Shown in pieces: positions 15,897 to 62,333 of a stretch of DNA of 64,000 nucleotides. The translations under genes and the position numbers were made by a program. This DNA comes from a virus (Duplodnaviria; Heunggongvirae; Uroviricota; Caudoviricetes). The notes beneath the pieces were generated by a model. It was not told the DNA's origin. It was given only the letters and a program-made list of their open reading frames with translations, and made no database searches. Positions within the stretch are counted from its first letter, which is position 1; each line of letters starts with the position of its first letter. Location: the IMG/VR virus record IMGVR_UViG_3300042400_000444; one strand, given 5' to 3'.

Positions 15897-15903
15897 TTTA
15901 TAA

Positions 15904-16107: not shown

Positions 16108-16122
16108 TACAGAGTAGTTAAG

Positions 16123-18213: not shown

Positions 18214-18264
18214 AGCATTTGAAGTTAAGTAATACGCTCTTTAACAGTTTAGAAGTAGTACAAT

Positions 18265-19466: not shown

Positions 19467-19541
19467 GGGGGTATAATTCAATGGCTAGAATATCCGGCTT
19501 TTACCCGGACTATCAGAGTTCAAATCTCTGTGCCCTCACCA
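19467..19541 (+). tRNA. tRNA-Lys (anticodon TTT)
   Basis: Acceptor GGGGGTA/TGCCCTC with G-U pairs, anticodon arm TCCGG-CTTTTAC-CCGGA, T-arm CAGAG-TTCAAAT-CTCTG, CCA. Confidence 0.7.
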
Positions 19542-19655
19542 TAAGAAAGTATATTACTGACGCCTCAGAGAAGAGTTCCGGTAGCTCAGTATCGATTAAT
19601 AACTAAGTCAGCAGTTGGGTTCGCTGAATGTAGTGTACTTCCTTATGGTATCAAT

Positions 19656-19732
19656 GGTGACCGTAGCTCAGTTGGTAGAGTCCAGGATTGTGATTCCTGT
19701 TGTCGTGGGTTCGAGCCCCATCGGTCACCCCA
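19656..19732 (+). tRNA. tRNA-His (anticodon GTG) with extra 5' G(-1)
   Basis: G+GTGACCG/CGGTCAC, D-arm GCTC-AGTTGGTA-GAGT, anticodon arm CAGGA-TTGTGAT-TCCTG, CCA. Confidence 0.75.
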
Positions 19733-19790
19733 AGTTTTAATATGGCTTCCGTCCGTAGAATACTGCTTGCAGTCGGCTCGGAAGTTCTTT

Positions 19791-19868
19791 GGCACTTTAG
19801 CATAGCTGGCTTAATGCGCTACCCTGTCACGGTAGAGATCACGGATTCGAATTCCGTAAGTGTCGCCA
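19791..19868 (+). tRNA. tRNA-Asp (anticodon GTC)
   Basis: Acceptor GGCACTT/AAGTGTC, anticodon arm CTACC-CTGTCAC-GGTAG, T-arm ACGGA-TTCGAAT-TCCGT, CCA. Confidence 0.75.
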
Positions 19869-19874
19869 ACTTAT

Positions 19875-19948
19875 TCCGGTGTAGTATAATGGCAGTGCGA
19901 CGGTCTCCAAAACCGTTAGTGGGGGTTCGATTCCCTCCACCGGAGCCA
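19875..19948 (+). tRNA. tRNA-Trp (anticodon CCA)
   Basis: Acceptor TCCGGTG/CACCGGA, anticodon arm ACGGT-CTCCAAA-ACCGT, T-loop TTCGATT, CCA. Confidence 0.7.
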
Positions 19949-19962
19949 GTTTCAAATAGTGG

Positions 19963-19991
19963 TTGACAGCAAATATCAAAAATGCTACACT
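19963..19991 (+). promoter_or_regulatory. sigma70-type promoter inside the tRNA island
   Basis: TTGACA-N17-TACACT. Confidence 0.5.
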
Positions 19992-20021
19992 ATATAGATA
20001 GTAACAAATAAGTAAATGGAA

Positions 20022-20074
20022 GAAAGCCGTAACAATATGTATTCGAGGTTAGGAGAGTACGGCAAACCGTCCAA
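20022..20074 (+). ncRNA. conserved 52-nt structured element, copy 1 (second copy at 23301)
   Basis: GAAAGCcGTAACAaTATGTATTCGAGGTTAGGAGAGTACgGCAAACCG. The GCCGTA/TACGGC stem covaries with GCTGTA/TACAGC in copy 2. Could alternatively encode a 14-15-aa peptide MYSRLGEY(G/S)KP. Confidence 0.4.
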
Positions 20075-20168
20075 GGGTAGCTGATGCCTGTGGTGCAACT
20101 CCACCGTTGAAATCAGTCATGATTCTGCACATGATAACAGGCCTGTATTTGGCCGCAGAACTTTTATC

Positions 20169-20242
20169 GCGGTGGTGGGCTAATTGGCAAGCCGTAGGGC
20201 TCATAACCCTGAGACGAGGTTCGAATCCTCCGACCGCAACCA
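20169..20242 (+). tRNA. tRNA with CAT anticodon (Met/Ile2 class), slightly non-canonical
   Basis: D-arm GGCT-AATTGGCA-AGCC, anticodon arm TAGGG-CTCATAA-CCCTG, T-loop TTCGAAT. Acceptor GCGGTGG/CGACCGC has one G-G mismatch. 3' ACCA. Confidence 0.5.
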
Positions 20243-20260
20243 AATACACAGGGGAATAAC

Positions 20261-20428
20261 ATGGCAATTAAAAAAGCAAACTCAATGACTACACGTACAG
20301 GCAAACCTAGACTAGGTCCACTGAATTTAACCCAACTAAATACATTGTTGGATAAAACTAGCAAAGGTAAAGATAAAGCAAAACTCCGTAATAGAATTGC
20401 TGTATTGGAATCACGCTTAGTTAAATAA
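20261..20428 (+). CDS. small basic protein (55 aa)
   Basis: RBS CAGGGGAATAACATG. K/R-rich. Confidence 0.35.
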   Translation: MAIKKANSMTTRTGKPRLGPLNLTQLNTLLDKTSKGKDKAKLRNRIAVLESRLVK

Positions 20429-20434
20429 GTTTTT

Positions 20435-20519
20435 GCCGGGTTGCGCCGAATGGGATGGCACCTGACTTGTAATCAGGCTTCGTAAGATAGAGAGTGTTCG
20501 ATTCACTCACCCGGCACCA
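20435..20519 (+). tRNA. type-II-architecture tRNA (long variable arm, 3-bp D-stem) with apparent TGT (Thr) anticodon
   Basis: Acceptor GCCGGGT/ACCCGGC perfect. Anticodon arm CCTGA-CTTGTAA-TCAGG. Variable arm CTTCGTAAGATAGA. T-arm GAGTG-TTCGATT-CACTC. CCA. 85 nt. Confidence 0.55.
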
Positions 20520-20524
20520 GTAAT

Positions 20525-20599
20525 GCCCAGTTAGCAGAGTGGTAATGCGCCTCACTTGTAATGAGGATATCGGCGGTTCGATTCCGTCACTGGGCACCA
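20525..20599 (+). tRNA. tRNA-Thr (anticodon TGT)
   Basis: Acceptor GCCCAGT/ACTGGGC, anticodon arm CCTCA-CTTGTAA-TGAGG, T-arm GGCGG-TTCGATT-CCGTC, CCA. Confidence 0.7.
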
Positions 20600-20607
20600 A
20601 GTATTAA

Positions 20608-20692
20608 GCCTCTTTGGTGGAATTGGTATACACGTTGGTCTTAGAAGCCAATGCTGAAAGGCTTGAGAGTTCGAGTCTCTCAGGGGGCACCA
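20608..20692 (+). tRNA. tRNA-Leu (anticodon TAG), type II
   Basis: Acceptor GCCTCTT/AGGGGGC (G-U pairs), anticodon loop CTTAGAA, long variable arm, T-arm GAGAG-TTCGAGT-CTCTC, CCA. Confidence 0.65.
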
Positions 20693-20749
20693 AAAAATTT
20701 TATAGAGTAAAGTCTGATCGGTAAATACCCGTACAACGGAGATAAATTT

Positions 20750-21493
20750 ATGTTTGAATGGTATTGGGCGTTTGTATTCGGGTATATAGTACATACTATA
20801 ACAGTAATTGTAGTTTCAATTTTCCTGCATCGAATGTATGCACATAAGCACTTGTTATCCACGCCGGCATTTGATACAATGAGTCGAATTTGGTTATGGA
20901 TGGTAGGCGCATATTGGCCTAAAATTGCAAGAATATTTGCAGCAGTGCATAGAAAGCACCATGCTATGCCGGACACACTAGATGATCCACATACACCATG
21001 GATATATTCATGCCGTGAATTATTATTTCCTACGACAGACAGGGAAAAAGGCAAAGCATATTACATGCCGCCTGAAGAAAGAGATAGTATTGCAGGTGAT
21101 GTACCGGCATTCGATGATAAGTTGGATATATTCTTAATGAAGTATCTACCATACAGTAAGATACCATTGGTATTAGTATTCTTAACGTTATTTTCATGGC
21201 AAGGTGCTATAATTGGGTTTGTGTGGTTAACTATATCTCGGTACAGCGGAAGATTACATAATTGCGTATCGCACAAATATGGATATAGATGGCAACCAGC
21301 AAAAACAGAAGGTGACCGTTCAGTAAACTGCTTACCGATTGGGTTAGTATTCGGCGGTGAGGAATTAGGAGCCAATCATCATGATTATCCAGATTTGGTT
21401 AACTTTGCAATTAAGTGGTACGAATTTGATACAGGGTGGTATGTTGTTAAAGTATTAGAATTTTTTAAATTAGTAAAAATTGTTAAATCTTAA
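20750..21493 (+). CDS. membrane fatty-acid desaturase (stearoyl-CoA desaturase-like), paralogue 1
   Basis: His boxes HRMYAH, HRKHH(AMPD), NHHDYP. Hydrophobic N-terminal segments. Confidence 0.65.
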   Translation: MFEWYWAFVFGYIVHTITVIVVSIFLHRMYAHKHLLSTPAFDTMSRIWLWMVGAYWPKIARIFAAVHRKHHAMPDTLDDPHTPWIYSCRELLFPTTDREKGKAYYMPPEERDSIAGDVPAFDDKLDIFLMKYLPYSKIPLVLVFLTLFSWQGAIIGFVWLTISRYSGRLHNCVSHKYGYRWQPAKTEGDRSVNCLPIGLVFGGEELGANHHDYPDLVNFAIKWYEFDTGWYVVKVLEFFKLVKIVKS

Positions 21494-21638
21494 AGAAAAA
21501 ATTGCGAGTATGGTGGAATTGGTATACACAGTAAATGGTTGGAAATACCAATGGGTCAGCAAATAAAGGTAAACCCAAAAGTGAAGAGCATAAGAAAAAG
21601 ATTGCTGAATCAATAAAACAAAAATATGCTACAAGAAA

Positions 21639-21723
21639 TGCTCCGATGGCGTAATTGGTAGCCGCAATGGACTTAAAATTCATTATCGAAAGGTGTCCCG
21701 GTTCGACTCCGGGTCGGAGCACC
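21639..21723 (+). tRNA. tRNA-Leu (anticodon TAA), type II
   Basis: Acceptor GCTCCGA/TCGGAGC, anticodon arm ATGGA-CTTAAAA-TTCAT, long variable arm, T-arm CCCGG-TTCGACT-CCGGG, CCA. Confidence 0.7.
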
Positions 21724-21823
21724 AGAGTTTAGTTGCACAGTAAAAACACGAGTGATGGTGTGCGGGTTCAAATCCCGGTGGGGAGGTAAAAGCTCCCGGC
21801 TGCACTCAGACTAACAGTTTTAA

Positions 21824-21897
21824 AGCGGGATTAGTTTAATGGCAAAACTGGAGTTTTCCAAACTTCTGTCATCAGTTCGATTCTGATATCCCGCTCC
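21824..21897 (+). tRNA. tRNA-Gly (anticodon TCC)
   Basis: Acceptor GCGGGAT/ATCCCGC, D-arm GTTT-AATGGCA-AAAC, anticodon loop TTTCCAA, T-arm ATCAG-TTCGATT-CTGAT, CCA. Confidence 0.75.
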
Positions 21898-22173
21898 AAA
21901 CACTAGCTTTACACTTTGCGCTTTATCGAAAGTGGGTAATTGGCAATACCATAGCGCCAGGGCACACACGATGGTCTAGACCATGCCACAAGTCCCATTG
22001 CCGGGAGCCTTGAAAGTATCGTGGGTTATTTGTTGTTATATCCAAAAGATAACAGCTGGACAGGGTAACTACTCAGTTCTGGGCTAGGTGGTGCTAGTAG
22101 CAGAACACTTTACACTACAGCAATGTAGACGAACAGTATATATTATAGATTTACAAATTAGATAAGAAGTAAA

Positions 22174-22249
22174 TGGGGGTGTAGCTCATTTGGGAGAGCG
22201 CCTGCTTTGCAAGCAGGATGTAGCAAGTTCGATCCTTGTCACCTCCACC
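22174..22249 (+). tRNA. tRNA-Ala (anticodon TGC)
   Basis: Acceptor GGGGGTG/CACCTCC with G3-U70, D-arm GCTC-ATTTGGGA-GAGC, anticodon arm CCTGC-TTTGCAA-GCAGG, CCA. Confidence 0.75.
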
Positions 22250-22255
22250 ATATTA

Positions 22256-22331
22256 TAGGAGATTAGCTCATTTGGTAGAGCAGTGCCCTTACAAGGCAAA
22301 GGCGACTGGATCGTAACCAGTATCTCCTACC
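22256..22331 (+). tRNA. tRNA-Val (anticodon TAC), unusual T-loop ATCGTAA
   Basis: Acceptor AGGAGAT/ATCTCCT, D-arm GCTC-ATTTGGTA-GAGC, anticodon loop CTTACAA, T-arm ACTGG-ATCGTAA-CCAGT, CCA. Confidence 0.6.
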
Positions 22332-22345
22332 AGTTTTAAGTTTTA

Positions 22346-22424
22346 TTCCGCAGAATCCGAGCTAGGCGCACGGACTTGACTGTTAATCAATGATTAGCTG
22401 GGTTCGAATCCCAGATGCGGAGCC
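22346..22424 (+). tRNA. tRNA-Asn (anticodon GTT)
   Basis: Acceptor TCCGCAG/ATGCGGA (6/7), D-stem TCCG/CGGA, anticodon loop CTGTTAA, T-arm CTGGG-TTCGAAT-CCCAG, CCA. Confidence 0.6.
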
Positions 22425-22482
22425 AATATTATTTGGTAGAGCAATAGACTGAGCTAAATAAACATATAACGGAGTTATTGAT

Positions 22483-23106
22483 ATGTTTACTTGTGTGTAT
22501 TGTTCTAAAGTATGTAAAAATGATAATAGTCATCGAAATCATGAAAGACAATGTCCTAAAAATCTTAACAGGATTTATAAAAATGGAATGACTGGTAAAA
22601 CGGCATGGAACAAAGGACTTACAGTTGCTACTGATGAACGAGTGGCTAAAAATGCTATAGCAATTAAAGCAAATGCTAAAGAAATTGGTAAATGTAAAGA
22701 TCCAGAGAAGGAAGTATTACGTAGACAAAAATTGTCAATCGCTGCAAAAAGAAGCGGATTTGGCGGATACAGAGAAAACGCAGGACGCAGTAAAAAATTT
22801 AGAGTGTTAGATTCTTACGGTAAAGAAACAGTTTTACAAAGCACATATGAATTAAAGTGTAGTGAAATATTAAATGAGTTGGGCATTGAATGGATTCGAC
22901 CCAAAGCATTAAAATATGATAATAAAAATTATTTTGCGGACTTTTACTTACCTAAGATAGATATGTATCTTGATCCTAAGAATAGTTATAAAGCAAGATT
23001 AGATTTAGAAAAAATAAACAAAGTTATAGAACAAAATAATGTTAAAGTTGTAATCTTATTAGAAGAACACCTAACATTAGAACATATTAAACAGCTCTGT
23101 AGTTAA
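22483..23106 (+). CDS. putative homing-endonuclease-like protein (zinc finger plus NUMOD-like segment)
   Basis: N-terminal CVYCSKVCKNDNSHRNHERQC zinc finger. GKTAWNKGLT is NUMOD3-like. AT-rich gene inside the tRNA island. Its 3' end overlaps the start of tRNA-Ile. Confidence 0.4.
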   Translation: MFTCVYCSKVCKNDNSHRNHERQCPKNLNRIYKNGMTGKTAWNKGLTVATDERVAKNAIAIKANAKEIGKCKDPEKEVLRRQKLSIAAKRSGFGGYRENAGRSKKFRVLDSYGKETVLQSTYELKCSEILNELGIEWIRPKALKYDNKNYFADFYLPKIDMYLDPKNSYKARLDLEKINKVIEQNNVKVVILLEEHLTLEHIKQLCS

Positions 23107-23166
23107 ATGGTATAACGGACGCTTGATAAGCGTTTATTACAAGTTCAATTCTTGTCAGAGCTACCA
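23093..23166 (+). tRNA. tRNA-Ile (anticodon GAT)
   Basis: Acceptor AGCTCTG/CAGAGCT, D-arm GTTA-AATGGTA-TAAC, anticodon arm GACGC-TTGATAA-GCGTT, T-arm ACAAG-TTCAATT-CTTGT, CCA. First 14 nt lie inside the upstream CDS. Confidence 0.7.
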
Positions 23167-23300
23167 AGTATTCCAACCGCATCACGTTTAGGGTGAAGTA
23201 GGGCGTGTTAACAAAACCCTGTAAGATCAAAAATACCTATCAAGGCAAGGAGGAATCACAGCGCAAGCTGAAGACGACTGCGGTGACTTGCTAAAAGGGA

Positions 23301-23353
23301 GAAAGCTGTAACATTATGTATTCGAGGTTAGGAGAGTACAGCAAACCGCCCAA
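23301..23353 (+). ncRNA. conserved 52-nt structured element, copy 2
   Basis: GAAAGCtGTAACAtTATGTATTCGAGGTTAGGAGAGTACaGCAAACCG. Compensatory C>T/G>A relative to copy 1 preserves the 6-bp stem. Confidence 0.4.
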
Positions 23354-23476
23354 CTCATAATACACCAGACCTCAACCTCGCAAGAGACAATTCTGGTTCC
23401 GCTGACGCGAAAAGAGGATGGGCTGCGCTCACGGGGTTTGTTAGGTTCCTGTCACATGAATACCTAACACTTATTT

Positions 23477-23564
23477 GGAGGATTGGCTGAGTGGTTTAAG
23501 GCAGCAGTCTTGAAAACTGTCGAGCTGAAAGGCTCCGTGAGTTCGAATCCCACATCCTCCGCCA
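23477..23564 (+). tRNA. tRNA-Ser (anticodon TGA), type II
   Basis: Acceptor GGAGGAT/ATCCTCC, anticodon arm GCAGT-CTTGAAA-ACTGT, variable arm CGAGC-TGAAAG-GCTCCG, CCA. Confidence 0.65.
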
Positions 23565-23569
23565 AATAC

Positions 23570-23598
23570 TTGACAACGTTCTAAAACGGTGTTATAAT
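23570..23598 (+). promoter_or_regulatory. sigma70-type promoter
   Basis: TTGACA-N17-TATAAT. Confidence 0.55.
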
Positions 23599-23618
23599 AG
23601 TTTTATAGTAAGAAATTA

Positions 23619-23712
23619 GGAGAGCTGGCCGAGTGGTCGAAGGCACTTCCCTGCTAAGGAAGCATACGGGCTTAACCCTGTATCGAGGGTTCGAATCTCA
23701 CCGCTTCCGCCA
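23619..23712 (+). tRNA. tRNA-Ser(GCT)-like with non-pairing acceptor stem (possible pseudogene)
   Basis: D-arm and anticodon arm CTTCC-CTGCTAA-GGAAG, long variable arm, T-loop TTCGAAT. The 5' end GGAGAGC does not pair with the 3' end CGCTTCC. Ends GCCA. Confidence 0.35.
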
Positions 23713-23730
23713 ATTTTATTAAGGACTGAT

Positions 23731-24147
23731 ATGTTGCGCACTGTGGTATTATCGTTGGCACTTTTGTTTACAATTACAGCACATGCTGAAGATTGGGCAG
23801 TAGTAACTGATTCGGGTGATGGAGTACGTTTAATTGCTGATGTTGAATCAGTAAAGGTTAAAGAATACAAAAAAGGTACTAAAAAAGGTACAGGTATATT
23901 TGTCAATATGCAATATGTAAACACCGACCTTATATTTGTATCTGCTATTGATGTTGAAGAATGCTTATTAAAGCAACGTGGCACATTAATTAATGCTTAC
24001 CCAAGCGGTGAATCCAATACATACTTTTGGGACATTAGCGGTGGCAAGATGTATGATGCACAAGGGCAATGGTTATGCGGTGCTGTATATGGCATACTTA
24101 AAAATAATAAAAAACAACCAAAACCTAAACCTAAAGTAACAATGTAA
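23731..24147 (+). CDS. secreted hypothetical protein (signal peptide)
   Basis: N-terminal MLRTVVLSLALLFTITAHA signal. 138 aa. KPKPK C-terminal tail. Confidence 0.45.
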   Translation: MLRTVVLSLALLFTITAHAEDWAVVTDSGDGVRLIADVESVKVKEYKKGTKKGTGIFVNMQYVNTDLIFVSAIDVEECLLKQRGTLINAYPSGESNTYFWDISGGKMYDAQGQWLCGAVYGILKNNKKQPKPKPKVTM

Positions 24148-24157
24148 TATAGCATTC

Positions 24158-24247
24158 GGAGAGTGGGCCGGACGGTAAGGCACCACCCTGCTAAGGTGTA
24201 CAACTCTTTAAACAGTTGACAGGGTTCGACTCCCTGACTCTCCGCCA
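24158..24247 (+). tRNA. tRNA-Ser (anticodon GCT), type II
   Basis: Acceptor GGAGAGT/ACTCTCC perfect, anticodon loop CTGCTAA, variable arm CAACT...AGTTG, T-arm AGGG-TTCGACT-CCCT, CCA. Confidence 0.7.
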
Positions 24248-24301
24248 TAAAATTGAGGATAACTAACCCTCAACTAAGTATGTATAATACACGAGAATTT
24301 A

Positions 24302-25642
24302 ATGAACGATAATAAAAAAATATGGCCTATTAAATCAGAGACATCGTGCTATTTAAAATGGTCATGGAGCACTATTTTCCTCACTAAAGGTACCACAGCC
24401 AGTTGTCATCGAACTGTACATTCAGATATTGATATTAATAATTTTAATAATTTTCATAATACTCCAAAAAAATTAGATGATCGAAAGCGTATGCTAGCTG
24501 GCAACTGGCCGGAAGAGAGCGAGTCTGATAAATTTGGAATTCCTGGATGTACTTATTGTAAAGATATAGAAGATCATGGTGGCACAAGTGATCGTACAGT
24601 GCAATTACGTCATCTCGAAGCAATGAGTGCAACACAAAATAATATATTGCCCGTAGAATTATTAACAGATCCAACAGCAACGGAAGTAACTCCTACAATA
24701 ATTGAAGTTTATTTTAATAATGTGTGCAACATGGCTTGTTTGTACTGCGGCCCTCATTTTAGTACTATGTGGGAAGAAGAAAATCGGAGATTTGGCATTA
24801 CAGAAGACGACGGTATATTAAATACACCGTTATGGAAACGTAATCCTACTCAATATAGTACGTTGCGTGATGGACTATTTACTTGGTTACGTGAACACGG
24901 AGATAAGATTTGGAACTTCGGTATGTTAGGTGGCGAACCTTTCTTCCAACAAGAATTTGACATGGTATTAGATCATTGGGAAAATTATCCTAATCCAAAT
25001 TTACTATTAACTATAGTTAGTAATTTAAAAATAGAACATACTCGATTTGTTGGTTACATTCAACGATTAAAACGTATGGTAGAAACTGGTAAGATTAAAA
25101 AATTAAATCTTAGTGCTAGTTTAGATTGTTGGGGACCCCCAGCAGAATATATTAGATGGGGATTAAATCTAATAGAGTGGGAGAAGAATTTTAATTATCT
25201 AGCACAAGCGGGGTTCGATGAATGGATTGTTTTGAATGTCAATATTACCATCACTCCATTAAGCATAAGGACATTGCCGGACTTGATTTATAAATTAAAC
25301 GAATTGGATAAACTTAGAGACCCAACACGTCATATTTGTATTAGTTTTATGCACGTTAATTCGCCGACACAACTAAACCCATTATGGTTTGGTGCTGGTG
25401 TATTTACAGAAGATATGATTAAGGTAGTGGATGCAATGCCGACAGGAACACAATACCAGCGTGATTATAAAGAATATATGCAAGGTATTGCTAACAGTAT
25501 AGAACAGACTCCACGAAATCCTGCCGCTATTCTTATGTTAGAAACATATCTAAATGAAATGGACCAGCGCAGGGGAACACATTGGCCAGAATTATTTCCG
25601 TGGCTAGTGAGACAATTTGAGTTAGCCCATTCGGAAATATAA
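24302..25642 (+). CDS. radical SAM enzyme (paralogue B)
   Basis: CNMACLYC is a CxxxCxxC motif. GGEPFF. N-terminal SCYLKW...ASCH motif shared with the ORF at 8818. 446 aa. Confidence 0.8.
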   Translation: MNDNKKIWPIKSETSCYLKWSWSTIFLTKGTTASCHRTVHSDIDINNFNNFHNTPKKLDDRKRMLAGNWPEESESDKFGIPGCTYCKDIEDHGGTSDRTVQLRHLEAMSATQNNILPVELLTDPTATEVTPTIIEVYFNNVCNMACLYCGPHFSTMWEEENRRFGITEDDGILNTPLWKRNPTQYSTLRDGLFTWLREHGDKIWNFGMLGGEPFFQQEFDMVLDHWENYPNPNLLLTIVSNLKIEHTRFVGYIQRLKRMVETGKIKKLNLSASLDCWGPPAEYIRWGLNLIEWEKNFNYLAQAGFDEWIVLNVNITITPLSIRTLPDLIYKLNELDKLRDPTRHICISFMHVNSPTQLNPLWFGAGVFTEDMIKVVDAMPTGTQYQRDYKEYMQGIANSIEQTPRNPAAILMLETYLNEMDQRRGTHWPELFPWLVRQFELAHSEI

Positions 25643-25672
25643 CACAATTCATTATTAAACACAGGAGCATTA

Positions 25673-25777
25673 TATGTTATTTCTAATCTTAAAAAGCGCA
25701 GTAGTTGTTGCAATAGCATTTTGCGCATTAATTCTAGAAGTATTCATATTAGTGTGGATCGCAAACAAACTAAAATA
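25673..25777 (+). CDS. 34-aa hydrophobic peptide (single predicted TM helix) directly downstream of radical SAM paralogue B
   Basis: RBS ACAGGAGCATTATATG. MLFLILKSAVVVAIAFCALILEVFILVWIANKLK. Confidence 0.3.
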
Positions 25778-25785
25778 GTTTAATT

Positions 25786-25876
25786 GCTCCTGTAGTTTAA
25801 CGGTAAAACAGCGGGCTTATACCCCGTAACAACAGATAATTGGCTGATCAAGGTTCGAATCCTACCACTTCCGCCA
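25786..25876 (+). tRNA. tRNA-like (apparent TAT anticodon, 21-nt variable region) with non-pairing acceptor ends
   Basis: D-arm GTTT-AACGGTA-AAAC, anticodon arm GCGGG-CTTATAC-CCCGT, T-loop TTCGAAT. The 3' tail CACTTCCGCCA has no complementary 5' strand. Confidence 0.3.
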
Positions 25877-26004
25877 AAACAACCGAGAACGCCTCTTAAC
25901 AATGCGCAACATCAAACGTGGATTTACACGTGACGCTATAGGACGCTATAGTCTACGGTCCTCCGGGAGGATAACTCCCAACTTATTCTAAAAGTATCAG
26001 TAAT

Positions 26005-26080
26005 ACCCTCTTCGCCAAGTTGGTAAGGCAACAGGTTTTGATCCTGTCATTCGGTGGTTCGAGTCCATCAGGGGGTGCCA
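26005..26080 (+). tRNA. tRNA-Gln (anticodon TTG)
   Basis: Acceptor ACCCTCT/AGGGGGT, anticodon arm ACAGG-TTTTGAT-CCTGT, T-arm GGTGG-TTCGAGT-CCATC, CCA. Confidence 0.65.
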
Positions 26081-26086
26081 AACAAT

Positions 26087-26163
26087 GTATGTGTGTAGCT
26101 GAATGGATAAGCTGCGGATTGCAACCCCGTATTATGCAGGTTCGACCCCTGTCACATACTCCA
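26087..26163 (+). tRNA. tRNA-Cys (anticodon GCA), probable
   Basis: Acceptor GTATGTG/CACATAC perfect, anticodon loop TTGCAAC, T-arm GCAGG-TTCGACC-CCTGT, CCA. Confidence 0.55.
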
Positions 26164-26173
26164 CTTTCAATAT

Positions 26174-26250
26174 AGAGATGTAGCATAGTGGCCTAATGCA
26201 CTTGCTTCATACGCAAGCTACCGTAGGTTCAAATCCTACCATCTCTACCA
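26174..26250 (+). tRNA. tRNA-Met (anticodon CAT)
   Basis: Acceptor AGAGATG/CATCTCT, D-arm GCAT-AGTGGCCTA-ATGC, anticodon arm CTTGC-TTCATAC-GCAAG, T-arm GTAGG-TTCAAAT-CCTAC, CCA. Confidence 0.75.
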
Positions 26251-26256
26251 AACAAT

Positions 26257-26326
26257 GCCCCCGCCGATGGACGGACTTTGGCCTTCGAAGCCGAAAGAAG
26301 CGGTTCGATACCGTTCGGGGGCTCCA
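26257..26326 (+). tRNA. tRNA-Arg (anticodon TCG) with reduced D-arm (70 nt)
   Basis: Acceptor GCCCCCG/CGGGGGC, anticodon arm TTGGC-CTTCGAA-GCCGA, T-arm AGCGG-TTCGATA-CCGTT, CCA. Confidence 0.5.
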
Positions 26327-26334
26327 ACAATTAT

Positions 26335-26458
26335 GTGCGGGTGCTGGAACAGGGATACAGCTCAGCGGCAGTTGAGGCAAAGGGTTCGAGTCCCTTGGAA
26401 GTTCGCAAGACTTTTAGTATGGTACTGTTGGAGGCTCGAGTCCTTCCTCGCACACCAA
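26335..26458 (+). tRNA. ~124-nt tRNA-like locus with a good acceptor stem and two T-arm-like motifs (candidate intron-containing or fused tRNA)
   Basis: Acceptor GTGCGGG/CTCGCAC pairs 7/7 with one G-U. 3' T-arm GGAGG-CTCGAGT-CCTTC. Internal AAGGG-TTCGAGT-CCCTT. CCA. Confidence 0.3.
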
Positions 26459-26463
26459 ATAAA

Positions 26464-26530
26464 ATGTTACTGCTCAGTAACATTTGCCGTCAAAACCGGC
26501 TAAATCAGTTCAAATGTTACTGAGCAGTAA
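26464..26530 (+). promoter_or_regulatory. two copies of an 18-20-bp dyad-symmetric site ATGTTACTG-NN-CAGTAACAT, centres ~50 bp apart
   Basis: 26464-26483 ATGTTACTGCTCAGTAACAT; 26514-26530 ATGTTACTGAGCAGTAA. Lies between a tRNA-like locus and tRNA-Gly. Confidence 0.4.
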
Positions 26531-26539
26531 GATTAAAAT

Positions 26540-26616
26540 GCGGGATTAGCTCAGCTTGGTAGAGCACGACGTTGCCAACGTCGTTGTCAGGAGTTCAAAT
26601 CTCCTATCCCGCTCCA
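26540..26616 (+). tRNA. tRNA-Gly (anticodon GCC)
   Basis: Acceptor GCGGGAT/ATCCCGC, D-arm GCTC-AGCTTGGTA-GAGC, anticodon arm CGACG-TTGCCAA-CGTCG, T-arm AGGAG-TTCAAAT-CTCCT, CCA. Confidence 0.8.
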
Positions 26617-26624
26617 AATTTCAA

Positions 26625-26653
26625 TTGACAAAATGTCAAAACGAATGTATAAT
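26625..26653 (+). promoter_or_regulatory. sigma70-type promoter
   Basis: TTGACA-N17-TATAAT. Confidence 0.55.
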
Positions 26654-26679
26654 ACACTTAATTAAAAAAGGAGGCTATT

Positions 26680-27078
26680 ATGTCTTACAACTATAAAGAA
26701 GTAGAATTTAACGAATTAAAAGGTAAAGTGTTGACAAGCGTAGTAGTCAACGAATACAACGATGAAATTGTGTTTAAAACTACAGACGGCGAAGTATATA
26801 CTTTGTATCACGCACAAGATTGTTGTGAGTCAGTAGAAATTGAATCTATCGTTGGTGACTTGTCTGACTTAGTTGGCGAAGAAATCTTACTGGCAGAAGA
26901 AGCACAAAACTTATTTGACTTGATTAAATCTGCAGGCGAAGTAGAAGAAGATGAATACGGTTCACACACATGGACATTTTATAAATTAGCAACTCGCAAA
27001 GGGTACGTTGACATCAGATGGTATGGTTCAAGCAACGGTTACTATTCAGAGGAAGTTTCTTTTAAAAGAGAGCAGTAA
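26680..27078 (+). CDS. hypothetical acidic protein
   Basis: RBS AAAGGAGGCTATTATG. 132 aa. Confidence 0.5.
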   Translation: MSYNYKEVEFNELKGKVLTSVVVNEYNDEIVFKTTDGEVYTLYHAQDCCESVEIESIVGDLSDLVGEEILLAEEAQNLFDLIKSAGEVEEDEYGSHTWTFYKLATRKGYVDIRWYGSSNGYYSEEVSFKREQ

Positions 27079-27079
27079 C

Positions 27080-27442
27080 ATGTCACACAGTGAATTAGAT
27101 TGGTTAGAATACAATGGGTGGGCAGGTCAGGATACTATTCCGCAACTTGCCCATGAAGCATTAGTACGATACTTTGTGCATGGCATGGAACCGGGTAGTT
27201 TTTTAACTGCTATGCTCGAGGGTGATTTGTTTACTGCGGCGTTTAAAGCAGACTTTGCAAACGCAGGAGCAATGGCAAAAATTGCTAAATGGATTGTACA
27301 TCATGCACCACACAATAGTTATGGTAATGCTGACATAGTTAAAAAATGGTGCAGTGACCCGACTATACGAGCAGACTTCGATAAGAAAGTGTTGTGGCAT
27401 TATTTACACACAGATGGAAAACCAAAAGTATATGACTTCTAA
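27080..27442 (+). CDS. hypothetical protein
   Basis: ATG at 27080 with RBS AAAGAGAGCAG. The six-frame ORF begins at 27008 and overlaps the upstream gene. Confidence 0.45.
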   Translation: MSHSELDWLEYNGWAGQDTIPQLAHEALVRYFVHGMEPGSFLTAMLEGDLFTAAFKADFANAGAMAKIAKWIVHHAPHNSYGNADIVKKWCSDPTIRADFDKKVLWHYLHTDGKPKVYDF

Positions 27443-27596
27443 ATTAAAACCGCAATGGATTAAAGATAAAGAAGCACTACAAACTATTAAGCCAGAAGAA
27501 CTTATCATTGTAGGAAAGATGGGAGTTGCTGGCGTAATAGATGGTAAACTTCCAAACGGTGAAGTGTACAATAGAAACATTAGAAAGAAACGATGA
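27354..27596 (+). CDS. hypothetical small protein (likely starts at internal ATG 27432)
   Basis: ORF overlapping the upstream gene. Basic C-terminus. Confidence 0.3.
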   Translation: MTRLYEQTSIRKCCGIIYTQMENQKYMTSKLKPQWIKDKEALQTIKPEELIIVGKMGVAGVIDGKLPNGEVYNRNIRKKR

Positions 27597-27835
27597 CATA
27601 CTATTGTGAGCTAAACAATGATGAGAATATAATACGCACAATGGGTGGACATAGAATAGTTGGGCGGTATGTAATAGTCGCCAGCCAATTCATTCCAACC
27701 GGGCTTACGTATAGTGCAAAAAACATTAATGATGGTATGCGATGGTACAAGCATCGAGAGAAAGCGAATTCGGACTTAACAGAAAATGAATGCAAAGCAC
27801 TAACTTTTCAAATATTAAAAAGTGAGACTTGGTGA
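27593..27835 (+). CDS. hypothetical protein
   Basis: 80-aa ORF, ATGA-coupled. Confidence 0.35.
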   Translation: MTYYCELNNDENIIRTMGGHRIVGRYVIVASQFIPTGLTYSAKNINDGMRWYKHREKANSDLTENECKALTFQILKSETW

Positions 27836-28218
27836 TGGAATTTACAATCGACCCAGAGTACTTAACAAGCGTAACTATTCATAAAGAGTGGAACACGTAT
27901 ACACACAATGGTCGCGTACCTACAGCAGAAGAACTTATTTTAATTATTCAAGGCAAGGGCGAGTGTTCGACTACAAGTTCAGAAGATCATCCAGAGTTTG
28001 CTAAGTTGCGCGAGCAGTTGGGTGCAGATGGATATATTCATATCCAGCGAGGTTGGTGGAATGGTGATGAGGTCTTAAAACCGTTTAAACTTAACGGAAG
28101 AAAATTTAAAGTAGGAGCACAGTTTAGCAGCGGTAGTGCAATGGGTACACACCTTGCTGTAAGAGCTAAACACCCCGAGTTATATAAGGATGAATACGAT
28201 GATGAAACCGTGGATTGA
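27829..28218 (+). CDS. hypothetical protein
   Basis: 129-aa ORF. Confidence 0.45.
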   Translation: MVMEFTIDPEYLTSVTIHKEWNTYTHNGRVPTAEELILIIQGKGECSTTSSEDHPEFAKLREQLGADGYIHIQRGWWNGDEVLKPFKLNGRKFKVGAQFSSGSAMGTHLAVRAKHPELYKDEYDDETVD

Positions 28219-28684
28219 AAACGTTAGTATGAAAGACATACAAGTAGGCGAGCACTTTGATGCTGGCACTAATTCTATGCTTATTCAAATTGTTGACCCT
28301 ATTACTCTTTTTCCAACACCAAAGCATACATTTAAAGAAGTGCATCAGTTTAAATTTTTAGATGCAGAAGACTCTGATGTTGCAGAGTACGGTGAAGAGC
28401 CATTGATTAGCGATCAGCAAGCAGAAGCAATTTTGCAGTTACTACAACGTGCGCTGGCCAACCATATGAACATTGTTGTACATTGTCACGCTGGTTTATG
28501 TCGTAGTGGTGCAGTAGTAGAGATTGGTGTTATGATGGGCTTTAGAGATACTGAAAAGTTTCGTAGTCCCAACTTACGGGTTAAACACAAATTAATGAAG
28601 TTGCTCGGGCTAATACACGACCCAGACGAGGAACATAACTGGCGTGATGATTATAGACATCACTTAACTAAAAGCAATATGTAA
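28190..28684 (+). CDS. protein tyrosine / dual-specificity phosphatase
   Basis: VHCHAGLCRSG is an HCx5R(S/T) P-loop signature. Confidence 0.65.
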   Translation: MNTMMKPWIENVSMKDIQVGEHFDAGTNSMLIQIVDPITLFPTPKHTFKEVHQFKFLDAEDSDVAEYGEEPLISDQQAEAILQLLQRALANHMNIVVHCHAGLCRSGAVVEIGVMMGFRDTEKFRSPNLRVKHKLMKLLGLIHDPDEEHNWRDDYRHHLTKSNM

Positions 28685-28695
28685 AGGAGTAGTAC

Positions 28696-28890
28696 ATGAT
28701 TAAGTTATCCCCAACGGGTAAAATATCCAAAAATGCTAACAAGGAACTTTGTTTAGATACTAAGTTTACTGTTAGCATTGATGTACGTGACGTAACGTAT
28801 GCTAACATTGATGAAAAGATTGCTGAGCTTATTGCAGAGGCACACAAAGTCAAACAAGTACTCGAACAAAACATAGTAACATCAAATTAA
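28696..28890 (+). CDS. hypothetical small protein
   Basis: RBS AAAGGAGTAGTACATG. Confidence 0.4.
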   Translation: MIKLSPTGKISKNANKELCLDTKFTVSIDVRDVTYANIDEKIAELIAEAHKVKQVLEQNIVTSN

Positions 28891-28898
28891 AAGAATAC

Positions 28899-28974
28899 GC
28901 AACCTTAGCTCATCTGGTAGAGCACCTGCTTGAAGCGCAGGGTGTGCTTGGTTCAAGTCCAAGAGGTTGCACCA
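28899..28974 (+). tRNA. tRNA-Phe (anticodon GAA)
   Basis: Acceptor GCAACCT/AGGTTGC, D-arm GCTC-ATCTGGTA-GAGC, anticodon arm CCTGC-TTGAAGC-GCAGG, T-arm CTTGG-TTCAAGT-CCAAG, CCA. Confidence 0.8.
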
Positions 28975-60865: not shown

Positions 60866-61257
60866 TGCGTTTACGCGAATTCGCAGGTGAAAACAATAGT
60901 GCTCCAGAGTCTAACTTAGTTACTGCTCTGGAGTTATTACGTCACCGTTCACAAGACAAATCAACACCAGCAACAATTAGTACTAAAAGTCTTATTAATC
61001 TAGTATTAAACACAGACAACACATTCAGCTACGATGCTTTGGTTGATGCAAACGAAAATAATCCAGCAGTAAAAAATCTTATTAAAAGTTTTAACAAAGA
61101 CCAAGTTATCCTTGCTCCATTAACGGGCGAAGATGAAGATTCAACTACAACTAACACAGATGGCGCTACCCAAAATACATTCCAAGCACCGGTAGACGAT
61201 GTTAGTTCAATGGCAGCACGTGCCGCTAAATCACGTGGCGCACCAATAGCACAATAA
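60865..61257 (+). CDS. hypothetical protein
   Basis: ATGA-coupled. 130 aa. Confidence 0.4.
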   Translation: MRLREFAGENNSAPESNLVTALELLRHRSQDKSTPATISTKSLINLVLNTDNTFSYDALVDANENNPAVKNLIKSFNKDQVILAPLTGEDEDSTTTNTDGATQNTFQAPVDDVSSMAARAAKSRGAPIAQ

Positions 61258-61276
61258 CCAAATAATCAAAAATCAT

Positions 61277-61310
61277 TGACTTTATACTATAAATAGTGTA
61301 GTATTGTAAT
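61277..61310 (+). promoter_or_regulatory. sigma70-type promoter upstream of iscU
   Basis: TTGACT-N17/18-TAGTAT. Confidence 0.4.
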
Positions 61311-61329
61311 ATACTATTGGAGGTATTAT

Positions 61330-61715
61330 ATGAGCTATTCAGCAGCGGTCTTGGACCATTATGAAAATCCAAGAAATGTAGGATCTTTAGATAAGGAGAA
61401 TGCGCAAGTTGGGACCGGAATCGTCGGTGCCCCAGCTTGCGGATGACAGGTGACGTCATGAAGTTACAAATTCAAGTCGAAGATGGTATTATAATCGATG
61501 CAAAGTTTAAAACATACGGATGTGGGTCAGCAATTGCTAGTTCTAGCCTAGTAACAGAATTGCTTAAAGGTATGACATTAGATGAAGCATACACAATTAA
61601 AAACTCAGCAATAGCAGAAGAACTTGCATTACCCCCAGTTAAGATACATTGTAGTGTATTAGCAGAAGATGCTATTAAAGCGGCTATTGCAGATTATAGG
61701 AATAAACAAGGATAA
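61330..61715 (+). pseudogene. iscU: iscU (Fe-S cluster scaffold) interrupted by an 8-nt insertion causing a frameshift inside the GAPACGD motif
   Basis: Frame 1 reads MSYSAAVLDHYENPRNVGSLDKENAQVGTGIVGAPACG-stop. The other frame continues DVMKLQIQVEDGIIIDAKFKTYGCGSAIASSSLVTE...LPPVKIHCSVLAEDAIKAAIADY, near-identical to E. coli IscU. RBS GGAGGTATTATATG. Confidence 0.6.
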
Positions 61716-61861
61716 GAAATGGCTTGCCCATTACACAATACAGAATATCAACAATATTGTTGTTTACATGATAAACATCAAGAGGATAATACATTTGAAC
61801 AATGCGAATATCAACAGGCATGTAGCTATCTTATTAACAATCAACAAGGGGTCGAAATAGA

Positions 61862-62017
61862 ATGGAAGAGGAAATCGAAAGCCCGTGCGTCGGCGCATGC
61901 GGATTATTTGATGGAGTTTGCCGCGGTTGTGGTAGAACAACAGACGAAGTAGTAGAATGGTACAATTTTACAAACGAACAAAAACAAGCAGTATTAGATA
62001 GGATATTCAATGATTAG
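61862..62017 (+). CDS. small Cys-rich ORF with a DUF1289-like motif (putative Fe-S protein)
   Basis: MEEEIESPCVGACGLFDGVCRGCGRTTDEVVEWYNFTNEQKQAVLDRIFND fits C.G.C...C.GC.RT..E...W. Stop overlaps the iscA start. Alternative overlapping ORF 61719-61952 not excluded. Confidence 0.35.
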   Translation: MEEEIESPCVGACGLFDGVCRGCGRTTDEVVEWYNFTNEQKQAVLDRIFND

Positions 62018-62333
62018 TTTAACTGAACTTGCTGCAGAGAAGATTAAGAAAAGCATTACTGCTCGCGGAGCAAACACGCTGGGTATTAAGATTGGCATCA
62101 AAACTGCTGGCTGTAGTGGTATGAGTTATGTTCTTGAGTTTGTTGATCAACTAACCGCAGATGATATTGAATATAAATGTCATGATGTTAGTATTTTTAC
62201 AACACCAAAAGACTTGGTGTATGTTGATGGCCTAAAAATGGATTGGAAACGTGAAGGGCTTAATGAGGGATTTGAATTTATTAATCCAAATGCTACCGGC
62301 GAATGTGGCTGTGGTGAAAGTTTTACAGTTTAG
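62010..62333 (+). CDS. iscA: A-type Fe-S carrier (IscA/ErpA/HesB family)
   Basis: GCSGMSY ... NPNATGECGCGESF with the three conserved Cys. Confidence 0.7.
   Translation: MISLTELAAEKIKKSITARGANTLGIKIGIKTAGCSGMSYVLEFVDQLTADDIEYKCHDVSIFTTPKDLVYVDGLKMDWKREGLNEGFEFINPNATGECGCGESFTV

What the first reader, a model, noticed from the sequence alone, without database searches (positions are those of the whole stretch)
61330..62333. Phage-borne isc module: iscU split by an 8-nt insertion, a DUF1289-like Cys-motif ORF, and iscA
A near-canonical IscU is encoded, but translation stops right after GAPACG. Canonical iscU reads TGC GGT GAC GTC ATG AAG; here it reads TGC GG[ATGACAGG]T GAC GTC, an 8-nt insertion in the most conserved cluster-ligand motif. 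The remainder (DVMKLQI...KIHCSVLAEDAIKAAIADY) continues in another frame. The module continues with a small CxGxC...CxGCxRT ORF and an intact iscA. A phage carrying its own Fe-S assembly scaffold fits its three radical-SAM enzymes and FeoA. Possible explanations for the split scaffold are a recent pseudogenisation, a sequencing or assembly error, or a recoding/regulatory event.
Basis: partly seen in the sequence, partly recalled or inferred. Interest (0 to 1): 0.75.

Follow-up and report, generated by a model that had tools for sequence, protein, structure and literature searches.

The report
Bypass-like coding gap in phage iscU
The 8-base break in this phage's iron-sulfur scaffold gene is real, and it belongs to a widespread mobile cassette (homing-endonuclease gene, RNA hairpin, Gly-stop-Gly mini-gap) that most likely makes ribosomes hop over the gap, a trick so far known in phages only from T4 gene 60.

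Summary
iscU stops after GAPACG (TGA 61444-46) and resumes at GAC 61452 in another frame. Unsplit relatives show that exactly 8 nt were inserted.

It is not an error or a decaying pseudogene. The junction occurs in 18 contigs from 18 metagenomes. About 70 distinct interrupted phage alleles exist, and none in 185,579 cellular genomes. Both halves are under purifying selection as strong as in intact phage iscU.

The inserts are 6-10 nt, fall in all three frames, and nearly all read Gly-STOP-(1-4 nt)-Gly-Asp. The Gly-Asp-Val codons after the stop are conserved with synonymous variation, and in-frame types have no start codon there.

Every interrupted allele has a covarying 10-bp mRNA hairpin ending at the take-off Gly codon (40/40, versus 1/68 intact alleles). 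An HNH-like endonuclease gene abuts 61/91 interrupted loci but only 1/76 intact ones. The window has lost that gene but keeps the hairpin and gap.

Best reading (about 0.6): a homing-endonuclease immunity insert is tolerated because peptidyl-tRNA-Gly hops from GGA to GGT. This parallels T4 mobA/gene 60 but is apparently independent of it, with a much shorter gap. No expression data exist. A two-piece IscU cannot be excluded for this clade.

The parts
61276..61329 (+). Promoter-like site (TTGACT-17-TAGTAT) and RBS (GGAGG) directly before iscU. This is the empty site where relatives carry the ~630-nt heA endonuclease gene.
   Evidence: promoter scan, 9/12 match; the window aligns with L087/L116 up to about 61322 and again from 61330, and heA (L116:6440-7075) lies between those points in the relative.
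61330..61446 (+). iscU N-piece: 38 codons (Met1 to Gly38, including cluster ligand Cys37) plus the TGA stop.
   Evidence: NifU_N profile positions 2-35. Intact in all relatives.
61403..61441 (+). mRNA hairpin with a 10-bp lower stem and an upper stem. Its last pair, C61403-G61441, uses the first base of the take-off Gly codon.
   Evidence: dG -35.2 kcal/mol, z=-3.1; interrupted alleles fold at -24.9 versus -13.4 kcal/mol for canonical ones, p=1e-21; z against synonymous resampling is -2.5 versus +0.2; covariation, 94.7% of cells paired, 0/500 shuffles; stem complete in 40/40 interrupted versus 1/68 canonical.
61441..61443 (+). Proposed take-off codon GGA (Gly38).
   Evidence: every junction type has GGN here, followed directly by a stop.
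61444..61451 (+). The 8-nt untranslated gap: stop TGA (61444-46), spacer CA, and proposed landing codon GGT (61449-51). The ATG at 61443-45 overlaps the stop (ATGA) and is in the C-piece frame in this clade only.
   Evidence: absent in unsplit sister alleles. (family architecture; the landing GGN is the first in-register GG after the stop).
61452..61715 (+). iscU C-piece: Asp39 to the C-terminus, with ligands Cys63, His105 and Cys106 and the LPPVK motif, plus the TAA stop.
   Evidence: NifU_N 34-124, E=2.4e-35. (omega 0.05-0.08 within the clade; pN/pS 0.17 family-wide).
61719..61952 (+). 77-aa Cys-rich ORF with no family match. It lies largely in a segment (about 61710-61867) that most relatives lack. 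It is probably not part of the mechanism.
   Evidence: (no Pfam hit).
61862..62017 (+). DUF1289-family small Cys protein.
   Evidence: PF06945, E=3.8e-16, above cut-off.
62010..62333 (+). iscA (A-type Fe-S carrier), intact.
   Evidence: PF01521, E=6.7e-18, above cut-off.
21825..21898 (+). Phage-encoded tRNA-Gly(UCC), the tRNA that reads the GGA take-off codon. tRNA-Gly(GCC) is at 26540-26616.
   Evidence: ARAGORN.

Best explanation
The 8-nt insert is the target-site immunity part of a homing-endonuclease cassette. In relatives an HNH-like endonuclease gene (heA) sits directly in front of iscU. It presumably cuts the canonical DNA that encodes the conserved ...GAPACGDVMK... ligand motif in phages lacking the cassette, and repair copies the cassette in. 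The short insert about 110 nt into iscU breaks that target, so the carrier is immune (inferred by analogy with T4 MobA; not tested here). The insert falls in the most constrained loop of IscU, so it is tolerated only because it is not translated. The ribosome reaches GGA (Gly38) with UGA in the A site. Peptidyl-tRNA-Gly unpairs, and the mRNA slides 8 nt. Sliding is helped by the upstream hairpin, whose 3' arm lies inside the ribosome at take-off and can re-pair with its waiting 5' arm as it emerges. The tRNA then re-pairs at GGU, and decoding resumes at GAC (Asp39), giving a normal full-length IscU. The window phage has lost heA but keeps the hairpin and gap, so it is an immune, endonuclease-less allele. 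Shown here: the insert family, the hairpin with covariation, the heA linkage, selection on both halves and on the Gly-Asp-Val codons, and the conversion-patch mosaicism. Inferred: the hop itself, its efficiency, and heA's target.
For: (1) The insert is real and old. The junction is in 18 contigs from 18 metagenomes whose flanks are 80-98% identical to the window. About 70 distinct interrupted alleles exist. There are 0 in 185,579 bacterial and archaeal genomes searched with the same pattern.
(2) At least 23 junction types have inserts of 6, 7, 8, 9 or 10 nt, so all three frames occur. All but two have the form TGY-GGN-STOP-(1-4 nt)-GGN-GAY. Alleles with identical 47-nt flanks carry gaps of different length and frame.
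(3) In an unbiased metagenome sample, 31/31 interrupted iscU keep GGN-GAY-GTN between the stop and Met41, with free third-base variation. The 18 in-frame alleles have no start codon there. There is no TAG reassignment.
(4) Both halves are under purifying selection equal to intact phage iscU: pN/pS 0.17 versus 0.16 for the C piece and 0.29 versus 0.19 for the N piece. Only 3 of 70 alleles have an extra stop.
(5) A hairpin ends at the take-off codon. Its stem is complete in 40/40 interrupted versus 1/68 canonical sequences. One pair shows all four Watson-Crick types with none unpaired. Stability far exceeds synonymous-codon controls.
(7) The split L101 and unsplit L098 alleles are identical except for a clean ~150-nt patch holding the hairpin and gap.
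(8) Precedent: the HNH endonuclease MobA and the gene 60 bypass form one mobile element, the insert blocks MobA nicking, and some phages keep the bypass after losing the endonuclease (10.1101/2022.08.31.505936). Pairing of mRNA exiting the ribosome has been proposed as the driver of forward bypassing (10.1101/2024.12.09.627546).
Confidence: 0.6

Rival explanations
1. Genes-in-pieces IscU. Translation terminates at UGA 61444, and the ribosome restarts at the overlapping AUG 61443 (AUGA coupling). A 38-aa N-fragment carrying Cys37 and a 90-aa C-fragment (MTG-Asp39...) then assemble non-covalently into a working scaffold. The break lies in the beta1-beta2 hairpin loop, a plausible split point.
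For: In the window clade an in-frame ATG overlaps the stop, and both ORFs are intact and conserved. HEG-split genes that still function are known; the gene 39/60 split is described.
Against: The ATG is in the right frame only in the 8-nt types. The 18 in-frame alleles have no start codon between the stop and Asp39, and the 7-nt types have only an inconsistent GTG eight codons upstream that is a by-product of a GGT-G codon junction. Restart at Met41 would leave Gly-Asp-Val untranslated, yet these codons are conserved 31/31 with synonymous variation. There is no SD before ATG 61443. This model gives no role to the obligatory hairpin ending at the Gly38 codon.
Confidence: 0.2
2. Dead or truncated gene. 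The insert is only an endonuclease-immunity scar, IscU function is lost or dispensable, and the apparent conservation reflects recent spread and gene conversion from intact alleles.
For: The window clade shows very low diversity around the junction and clear conversion patches. Intact alleles coexist in the same phage clade. The L138-type second insert and the L272 1-nt deletion look like plain lesions.
Against: Family-wide the N-piece, which travels with the cassette, has diverged to pS=0.64 with pN/pS 0.29, and the C-piece has pN/pS 0.17, the same as intact alleles. 67 of 70 alleles have no further lesion. The hairpin is kept by compensatory changes. A stop directly after Gly38 and a GGN directly before Asp39 are kept in 21 of 23 types despite rapid gap turnover.
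Confidence: 0.1
3. Conventional recoding that differs by class: a -1 frameshift here (product ...ACG-MTG-DVMK...), a +1 frameshift in the 7- and 10-nt types, and stop-codon readthrough in the 6- and 9-nt types. Each would give IscU a 2-3 residue loop insertion.
For: A stop in the A site stimulates frameshifting (prfB, from memory). An upstream structure and the GGUG sequence could modulate it. The C frame is open from 61395.
Against: It needs three different mechanisms for one conserved architecture. There is no slippery sequence: tRNA-Gly on GGA would have to re-pair on CGG. Sister alleles switch between classes. It would change the Cys37-Asp39 spacing in the most conserved motif. It gives no reason for an invariant GGN right before Asp39.
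Confidence: 0.07
4. Sequencing or assembly artefact.
For: None beyond its prior plausibility for a single metagenomic contig.
Against: The identical junction is in 18 independently assembled contigs, with synonymous variants next to it. There are dozens of other insert types at the same site, none in cellular genomes.
Confidence: 0.01

Closest known systems
Phage T4 gene 60 translational bypass with the MobA homing-endonuclease element
   Same: An HNH-family endonuclease gene lies directly upstream of the interrupted ORF. The take-off is at a Gly codon about 40 codons into the ORF (Gly38 here, Gly46 in T4), followed immediately by a stop, with a Gly landing codon. There is a stem-loop 5' of the take-off site. 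The insert lies in a highly conserved coding motif. Some phages keep the gap after losing the endonuclease. Distribution is patchy and conversion-like (one search compared).
   Different: The gap is 6-10 nt, not 50. There is no room for a take-off stem-loop or mini-SD inside the gap. The hairpin's 3' arm ends in the take-off codon. The host gene is iscU, not topoisomerase II. The host gene is not additionally split by the endonuclease ORF. heA is about 195 aa and showed no detected relationship to MobA; its cultured relatives sit between gp18 and gp19. Third-base take-off/landing matching is not significant. Bypassing here is not experimentally shown.
Non-programmed or short-range tRNA hopping over stop codons in E. 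coli (Weiss, Gesteland and Atkins work; from memory)
   Same: Peptidyl-tRNA detaches at a codon followed by a stop and re-pairs a few nucleotides downstream on a similar codon.
   Different: Those events are rare and occur in engineered contexts. Here the architecture is conserved in nature together with a dedicated covarying hairpin.
byp elements of Magnusiomyces capitatus mitochondria (mentioned)
   Same: Short mobile inserts in coding sequence are bypassed between matched or near-matched codons, with tolerance of wobble mismatches.
   Different: Those are 27-55 nt, GC-rich, and occur at many sites in many genes of a eukaryotic organelle. Here there is one site in one phage gene, linked to an endonuclease.
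Genes-in-pieces created by free-standing homing endonucleases in T4-like phages (for example the split nrd genes; from memory)
   Same: A HEG is inserted beside or inside a conserved gene, and function is kept despite the interruption.
   Different: There the two polypeptides each have their own start and reassemble. Here most alleles offer no start codon for the second piece.
prfB (RF2) +1 programmed frameshift
   Same: An early in-frame UGA follows a specific P-site codon, with an upstream mRNA element.
   Different: That is a single +1 slip on a slippery CUU-U with an SD stimulator. It cannot account for inserts of 6-10 nt in all three frames.

Membership tests
IscU / NifU_N Fe-S scaffold | Match to Pfam NifU_N above the gathering score across the domain | tested here: met
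   the repaired protein scores 173 bits (cut-off 22), and the pieces cover profile positions 2-35 and 34-124.
IscU / NifU_N Fe-S scaffold | Cluster ligands Cys37, Asp39, Cys63, His105 and Cys106, plus the LPPVK chaperone motif | tested here: met
   the sequence reads GAPAC|G..D VMK, YGCGSA, LPPVKIHCS. Cys37 is on the N-piece and the other ligands are on the C-piece.
IscU / NifU_N Fe-S scaffold | One uninterrupted reading frame | tested here: not met
   TGA at 61444, with the C-piece in another frame.
Programmed translational bypass (T4 gene 60 type) | A stop (or slow codon) immediately 3' of the take-off codon | tested here: met
   GGA-TGA here, and GGN-stop in 21 of 23 junction types.
Programmed translational bypass (T4 gene 60 type) | A landing codon cognate to the take-off tRNA, followed by in-phase coding | tested here: inconclusive
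   GGN always precedes Asp39, and it is the first in-register GG. The third base matches the same tRNA in only 18/24 types against about 69% expected by chance, and the window is GGA to GGT.
Programmed translational bypass (T4 gene 60 type) | A stimulatory mRNA structure at or upstream of the take-off site | tested here: met
   a covarying hairpin ends in the take-off codon and is present in 40/40 interrupted versus 1/68 canonical alleles. Its geometry differs from the T4 structures.
Programmed translational bypass (T4 gene 60 type) | The gap is non-coding and free to vary in length and frame | tested here: met
   inserts of 6-10 nt, with sister alleles differing in frame.
Programmed translational bypass (T4 gene 60 type) | A nascent-peptide signal in the exit tunnel | not testable with these tools
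   The upstream peptide is the conserved IscU sequence, so no separate signal can be resolved.
Programmed translational bypass (T4 gene 60 type) | A single polypeptide spanning the gap, shown experimentally | not testable with these tools
   No proteomic or reporter data are available.
Programmed translational bypass (T4 gene 60 type) | Homology to the MobA/gene 60 element (50-nt gap, located in Topo2L) | tested here: not met
   The host gene is different, the gap is 6-10 nt, and heA's cultured relatives are not beside the topoisomerase gene. This is an analogue, not a member.
Free-standing HNH homing endonuclease (heA, in relatives only) | HNH / His-Me finger catalytic motif and fold | tested here: inconclusive
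Free-standing HNH homing endonuclease (heA, in relatives only) | Patchy presence next to a conserved gene, with target-site alteration in carriers | tested here: met
   61/91 versus 1/76. The one canonical-spacing carrier (L030) has an altered target peptide. Conversion patch.
Free-standing HNH homing endonuclease (heA, in relatives only) | Cleavage of the cassette-less target DNA | not testable with these tools
   This needs enzyme assays.
Pseudogene | Relaxed selection and accumulating lesions | tested here: not met
DUF1289 / IscA (rest of the module) | Pfam matches above the gathering score | tested here: met

The most novel reading that the evidence does not exclude
Phage iscU genes carry a second, evolutionarily independent natural system of programmed translational bypassing. 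It is a minimal 6-10 nt Gly-stop-Gly gap, hopped with the help of a covarying hairpin that re-forms behind the ribosome, and it is spread by an HNH homing endonuclease that targets the DNA encoding the Fe-S ligand motif.
Probability: 0.55. Interest if true: 0.92.

Novelty: new variant of a known kind. Interest (0 to 1): 0.85.

Why it matters
Programmed bypassing has been described as an isolated phenomenon, with one element in one gene of T4-like phages, and I found no paper linking it to iscU. A second family would show that 'endonuclease plus bypassed immunity insert' is a recurrent evolutionary solution rather than a one-off. This family has about 70 natural alleles, gaps as short as 6 nt in all three frames, and one simple hairpin with natural compensatory mutants. 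It would offer a stripped-down system to test how upstream mRNA pairing drives ribosome sliding, which is the open question addressed in 10.1101/2024.12.09.627546. In practice, gene callers will report these phage Fe-S genes as broken, so metabolic-gene surveys will undercount them. The finding also marks iscU as a hotspot for selfish elements, with an intein at Cys63 and a second insert in LPPVK.

Tried and rejected
(1) Megablast of the region and of 24 kb of the window against cultured phages found no match, so there is no isolate relative.
(2) A protein search for IscU in viral contigs returned only intact alleles at the top and was uninformative until anchors not overlapping the junction were used.
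(3) I first read the ATGA stop/start overlap as translational coupling. I dropped it as a general mechanism because the ATG exists, or is in frame, only in the 8-nt types.
(4) I first took the frozen nucleotides 61357-61465 in the window clade as a possible long RNA signal. Family-wide synonymous entropy is near normal. The tract is explained by a recent conversion patch together with the specific 39-nt hairpin.
(5) Restart at Met41 using GGNGA as an SD was rejected because the Gly-Asp-Val codons are conserved and many alleles have GGCGA.
(6) TAG reassignment for the in-frame TAG types was rejected by ORF coverage.
(7) A downstream 'slippage barrier' structure showed no difference from intact alleles.
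(8) Third-base matching of take-off and landing codons is not above chance.
(9) An NJ tree to count origins was unresolved and confounded by recombination.
(10) A profile search of heA against PDB sequences found nothing, and Pfam and PHROGs give heA no named family.
(11) A bacterial isc-operon context was absent from all phage loci. The 'Acinetobacter phage MD-2021a' hits are bacterial isc operons.

Full report
OBSERVATION. An ORF starts at ATG 61330 behind a GGAGG RBS, encodes MSYSAAVLDHYENPRNVGSLDKENAQVGTGIVGAPACG, and stops at TGA 61444-61446. The rest of IscU (DVMKLQI...LPPVKIHCSVLAEDAIKAAIADYRNKQG) runs from GAC 61452 to TAA 61713-61715 in the -1/+2 frame. Pfam NifU_N matches the pieces at contiguous profile positions 2-35 and 34-124, and the repaired protein scores E=3.4e-51. 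ORF 61862-62017 is DUF1289 and ORF 62010-62333 is IscA, both above cut-off. The window is a large phage with terminase, helicases and an exonuclease and 27 tRNA genes. It has no close cultured relative.

NOT AN ERROR, NOT A RECENT PSEUDOGENE. The exact 26-nt junction occurs in 9 IMG/VR contigs. Anchors that do not include the junction (an upstream DNA word and the neighbouring 130-aa gene) brought in more relatives. Altogether 18 contigs from 18 metagenomes carry TGC-GGA-TGA-CA-GG[T/C]-GA[C/T], in 11 distinct alleles whose flanks are 80-98% identical to the window. Nine further contigs of the same phage clade carry an uninterrupted TGC-GGT-GAT, which proves an 8-nt insertion. No split allele has any further stop or frameshift. 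Within the clade the C-piece has dS from 0.3 to saturation with omega 0.05-0.08.

A FAMILY OF INSERTS AT ONE CODON BOUNDARY. I searched with a pattern that fixed only GAPACG and DVMK and left 2-30 nt free between them. These have about 20 different gap strings in about 60 alleles. The N-piece is a clean 38 aa and the C-piece runs to the normal C-terminus. Inserts are 6, 7, 8, 9 or 10 nt, so all three frames occur, including an in-frame stop. Of 23 types, 21 read TGY-GGN-STOP-(1-4 nt)-GGN-GAY. The same pattern in 185,579 bacterial and archaeal species genomes gave 7 chance hits and no IscU. Among 141 distinct phage alleles, 70 are interrupted and 71 canonical. None lies in a bacterial isc operon, and only 3 interrupted alleles carry an extra stop. 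Alleles with identical 47-nt upstream flanks carry gaps of different length and frame, for example CTGACGGC, TTAGCTTGGC and TTAGTGGC. The gap therefore turns over quickly while the stop and the second Gly codon are kept.

WHAT IS TRANSLATED. I ran an unbiased metagenome scan that fixed only GAPACG plus a stop and a downstream ATGAA. All 31 have GGN-GAY-GTN directly before Met41, with free third-base variation. Gly-Asp39-Val40 are therefore under protein-level selection even though they lie after the stop and before the first ATG. The 18 in-frame alleles have no ATG, GTG or TTG between the stop and Asp39. The GTG eight codons upstream in many 7-nt alleles is a by-product of a GGT-G codon junction: GGT is used at Gly33 in 79% of those alleles versus 54% of canonical ones, and 8 of 39 lack it. 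The ATGA overlap in the window exists only where GGA meets TGA, and it is in the C-piece frame only for the 8-nt types. ORF coverage gives no sign of TAG reassignment. Family-wide pN/pS is 0.17 for the C-piece of interrupted alleles versus 0.16 for canonical ones, and 0.29 versus 0.19 for N-piece codons 9-32, with pS of 0.64-0.82. Both halves are maintained by selection.

AN OBLIGATORY HAIRPIN. Folding window 61390-61500 gives a hairpin at 61403-61441, with GCGCAAGUUGGGACCGG pairing to UCGGUGCCCCAGCUUGCG. Its last pair uses the first G of the take-off GGA. The fold has dG -35.2 kcal/mol and z=-3.1. Across the family, the 51 nt ending at the Gly38 codon fold at -24.9 kcal/mol in interrupted alleles versus -13.4 in canonical ones (p=1e-21). 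Against resampling of synonymous codons, the z-scores are -2.5 versus +0.2 (p=5e-19), and this holds for every junction type. On 40 distinct sequences, 94.7% of cells are paired versus 32-39% when partners are slid. Pair 18-48 is CG 19, AU 17, UA 3, GC 1, and pair 21-45 has six standard types; neither has any unpaired cell. None of 500 shuffles reaches the covariation score, and RNAalifold finds the same stem. The 10-bp lower stem is complete in 40/40 interrupted but only 1/68 canonical sequences, where the median is 6 of 10 pairs. The invariant G-U pairs place the structure on the sense RNA. No comparable feature exists downstream. The only long-range nucleotide conservation is the recent patch in the window clade.

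MECHANISM. The closest precedent is T4. The HNH endonuclease MobA and the gene 60 bypass cassette form one mobile element, the insert prevents MobA from nicking its own genome, take-off is at Gly46 followed by a stop, and some phages retain the bypass after losing the endonuclease. The authors describe that cassette as unique and exclusive to the topoisomerase gene (10.1101/2022.08.31.505936). Pairing of mRNA emerging from the ribosome is proposed to drive forward bypassing (10.1101/2024.12.09.627546). By analogy I propose the following. heA targets the canonical DNA encoding GAPACGDVMK. The 6-10-nt insert confers immunity. The insert is harmless because peptidyl-tRNA-Gly leaves GGN when a stop occupies the A site. 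The mRNA slides 6-10 nt as the hairpin's 3' arm, which is inside the ribosome at take-off, re-pairs with its exposed 5' arm. The tRNA re-pairs at the next GGN, and decoding resumes at Asp39. One mechanism then explains all three frames, the conserved GGN and Asp-Val codons, the stop, and the hairpin. The phage's own tRNA-Gly(UCC) reads the window's take-off codon. I put this at about 0.6. Its weak points are that there are no expression data, that take-off and landing differ here at the third base (GGA to GGT) and matching is not above chance family-wide, and that in this clade an in-frame AUG overlaps the stop. A two-piece IscU (0.2) therefore remains possible for the window itself. A dead gene (0.1), class-specific frameshifting or readthrough (0.07) and an artefact (0.01) fit the data less well.

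NOVELTY. No paper in the library links iscU with bypassing or homing endonucleases. This is best filed as a new variant of a known kind: an analogue of the MobA/gene 60 element, not a member of that family. It sits in a different gene, with a far shorter gap and a different stimulatory structure.

Noticed in passing
L162 (IMGVR_UViG_3300005077_000572), minus strand of the locus, from about nt 7648 of the reverse complement: This iscU has the 10-nt gap (GGT TAG AACC GGC) and also a ~343-aa in-frame insertion at Cys63. It reads KTYG|CFVGNTY...VGSHN|CGSAIA: Cys at position 1, a C-terminal His-Asn, and a +1 Cys, which is the classic intein signature. Pfam Hint/Hint_2 matches are only sub-threshold (E=0.014-0.035).
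   Followed up: partly
L138, L261, L268 (second site in iscU) and L272: A second interruption lies inside the LPPVK motif: CCN CCN TAA CTA GTT AAG (a 6-nt in-frame insert with a stop, giving ...LALPP*LVKIHCS). L272 has a 1-nt deletion at the same place. All have a second endonuclease-like gene, heB, directly downstream of iscU (heB is at L116:7480-8253; PHROG 'endonuclease' E=5.9e-6 and 'homing endonuclease' E=1.3e-4). The insert has no Gly-stop-Gly or other hop-like architecture.
   Followed up: partly
L030 (IMGVR_UViG_3300032668_001028), iscU at 5001-5372: This is the only locus with heA upstream of an iscU with canonical spacing. Its peptide before Cys37 is GTGLTGSPACG instead of GTGMVGAPACG, which may be immunity by target substitution rather than by insertion.
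   Followed up: no
L121, L136, L144, L150 (gap TTGTTGGA) and L173 (gap TTGTTGAC): These are interrupted alleles without a stop right after Gly38. L144 looks derived from TTAGTTAGGT by a 2-nt loss, and its C frame then has a GTG (VVVGDVMK). L144 and L150 lack heA; upstream DNA was insufficient to judge L121, L136 and L173. These may be decaying alleles or ones that initiate the C-piece separately.
   Followed up: no
window 14015-28974: A cluster of 27 tRNA genes covers most amino acids, including four tRNA-Met(CAT), tRNA-Gly(UCC) at 21825-21898 and tRNA-Gly(GCC) at 26540-26616.
   Followed up: no
window 61710-61867, compared with L096, L097, L098, L114 and L116: The iscU-to-exonuclease interval is highly variable between sister phages. 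The window has an extra ~158 nt carrying most of a 77-aa Cys-rich ORF (61719-61952) that overlaps DUF1289. L096 and L097 carry a 437-aa FAD/NAD oxidoreductase (Pyr_redox_3, E=1e-16) between DUF1289 and iscA, and a 238-aa GDSL-like ORF after iscA. The unsplit-iscU phages (L098 type) have a truncated DUF1289-like ORF and no iscA.
   Followed up: partly
H1 and H2 = CAKLQH020000011.1 and CAKLQF020000009.1 ('Acinetobacter phage MD-2021a'), locus L002: These 'phage' records hold a complete bacterial iscR-iscS-iscU-iscA-hscB-hscA-fdx operon flanked by ppiD, hupB and cyaA. They look like bacterial contigs filed as phage.
   Followed up: no
window, whole (51 ORFs of at least 100 aa on the + strand): The Pfam census found one Radical_SAM protein (E=4e-7), two fatty-acid desaturases, sugar-nucleotide enzymes (GDP-mannose dehydratase, epimerase), RecA, and one NUMOD3-motif protein (E=7e-9), so the window phage carries another homing-endonuclease-type gene. 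FeoA and a second or third radical-SAM gene were not seen. Small ORFs were not scanned.
   Followed up: partly
window 61226-61459, minus strand: A 77-aa antisense ORF starts at the CAT of GTCATG and overlaps the whole N-piece. Its C-terminal part lies in the spacer that differs completely between relatives, so I judged it a chance ORF.
   Followed up: partly
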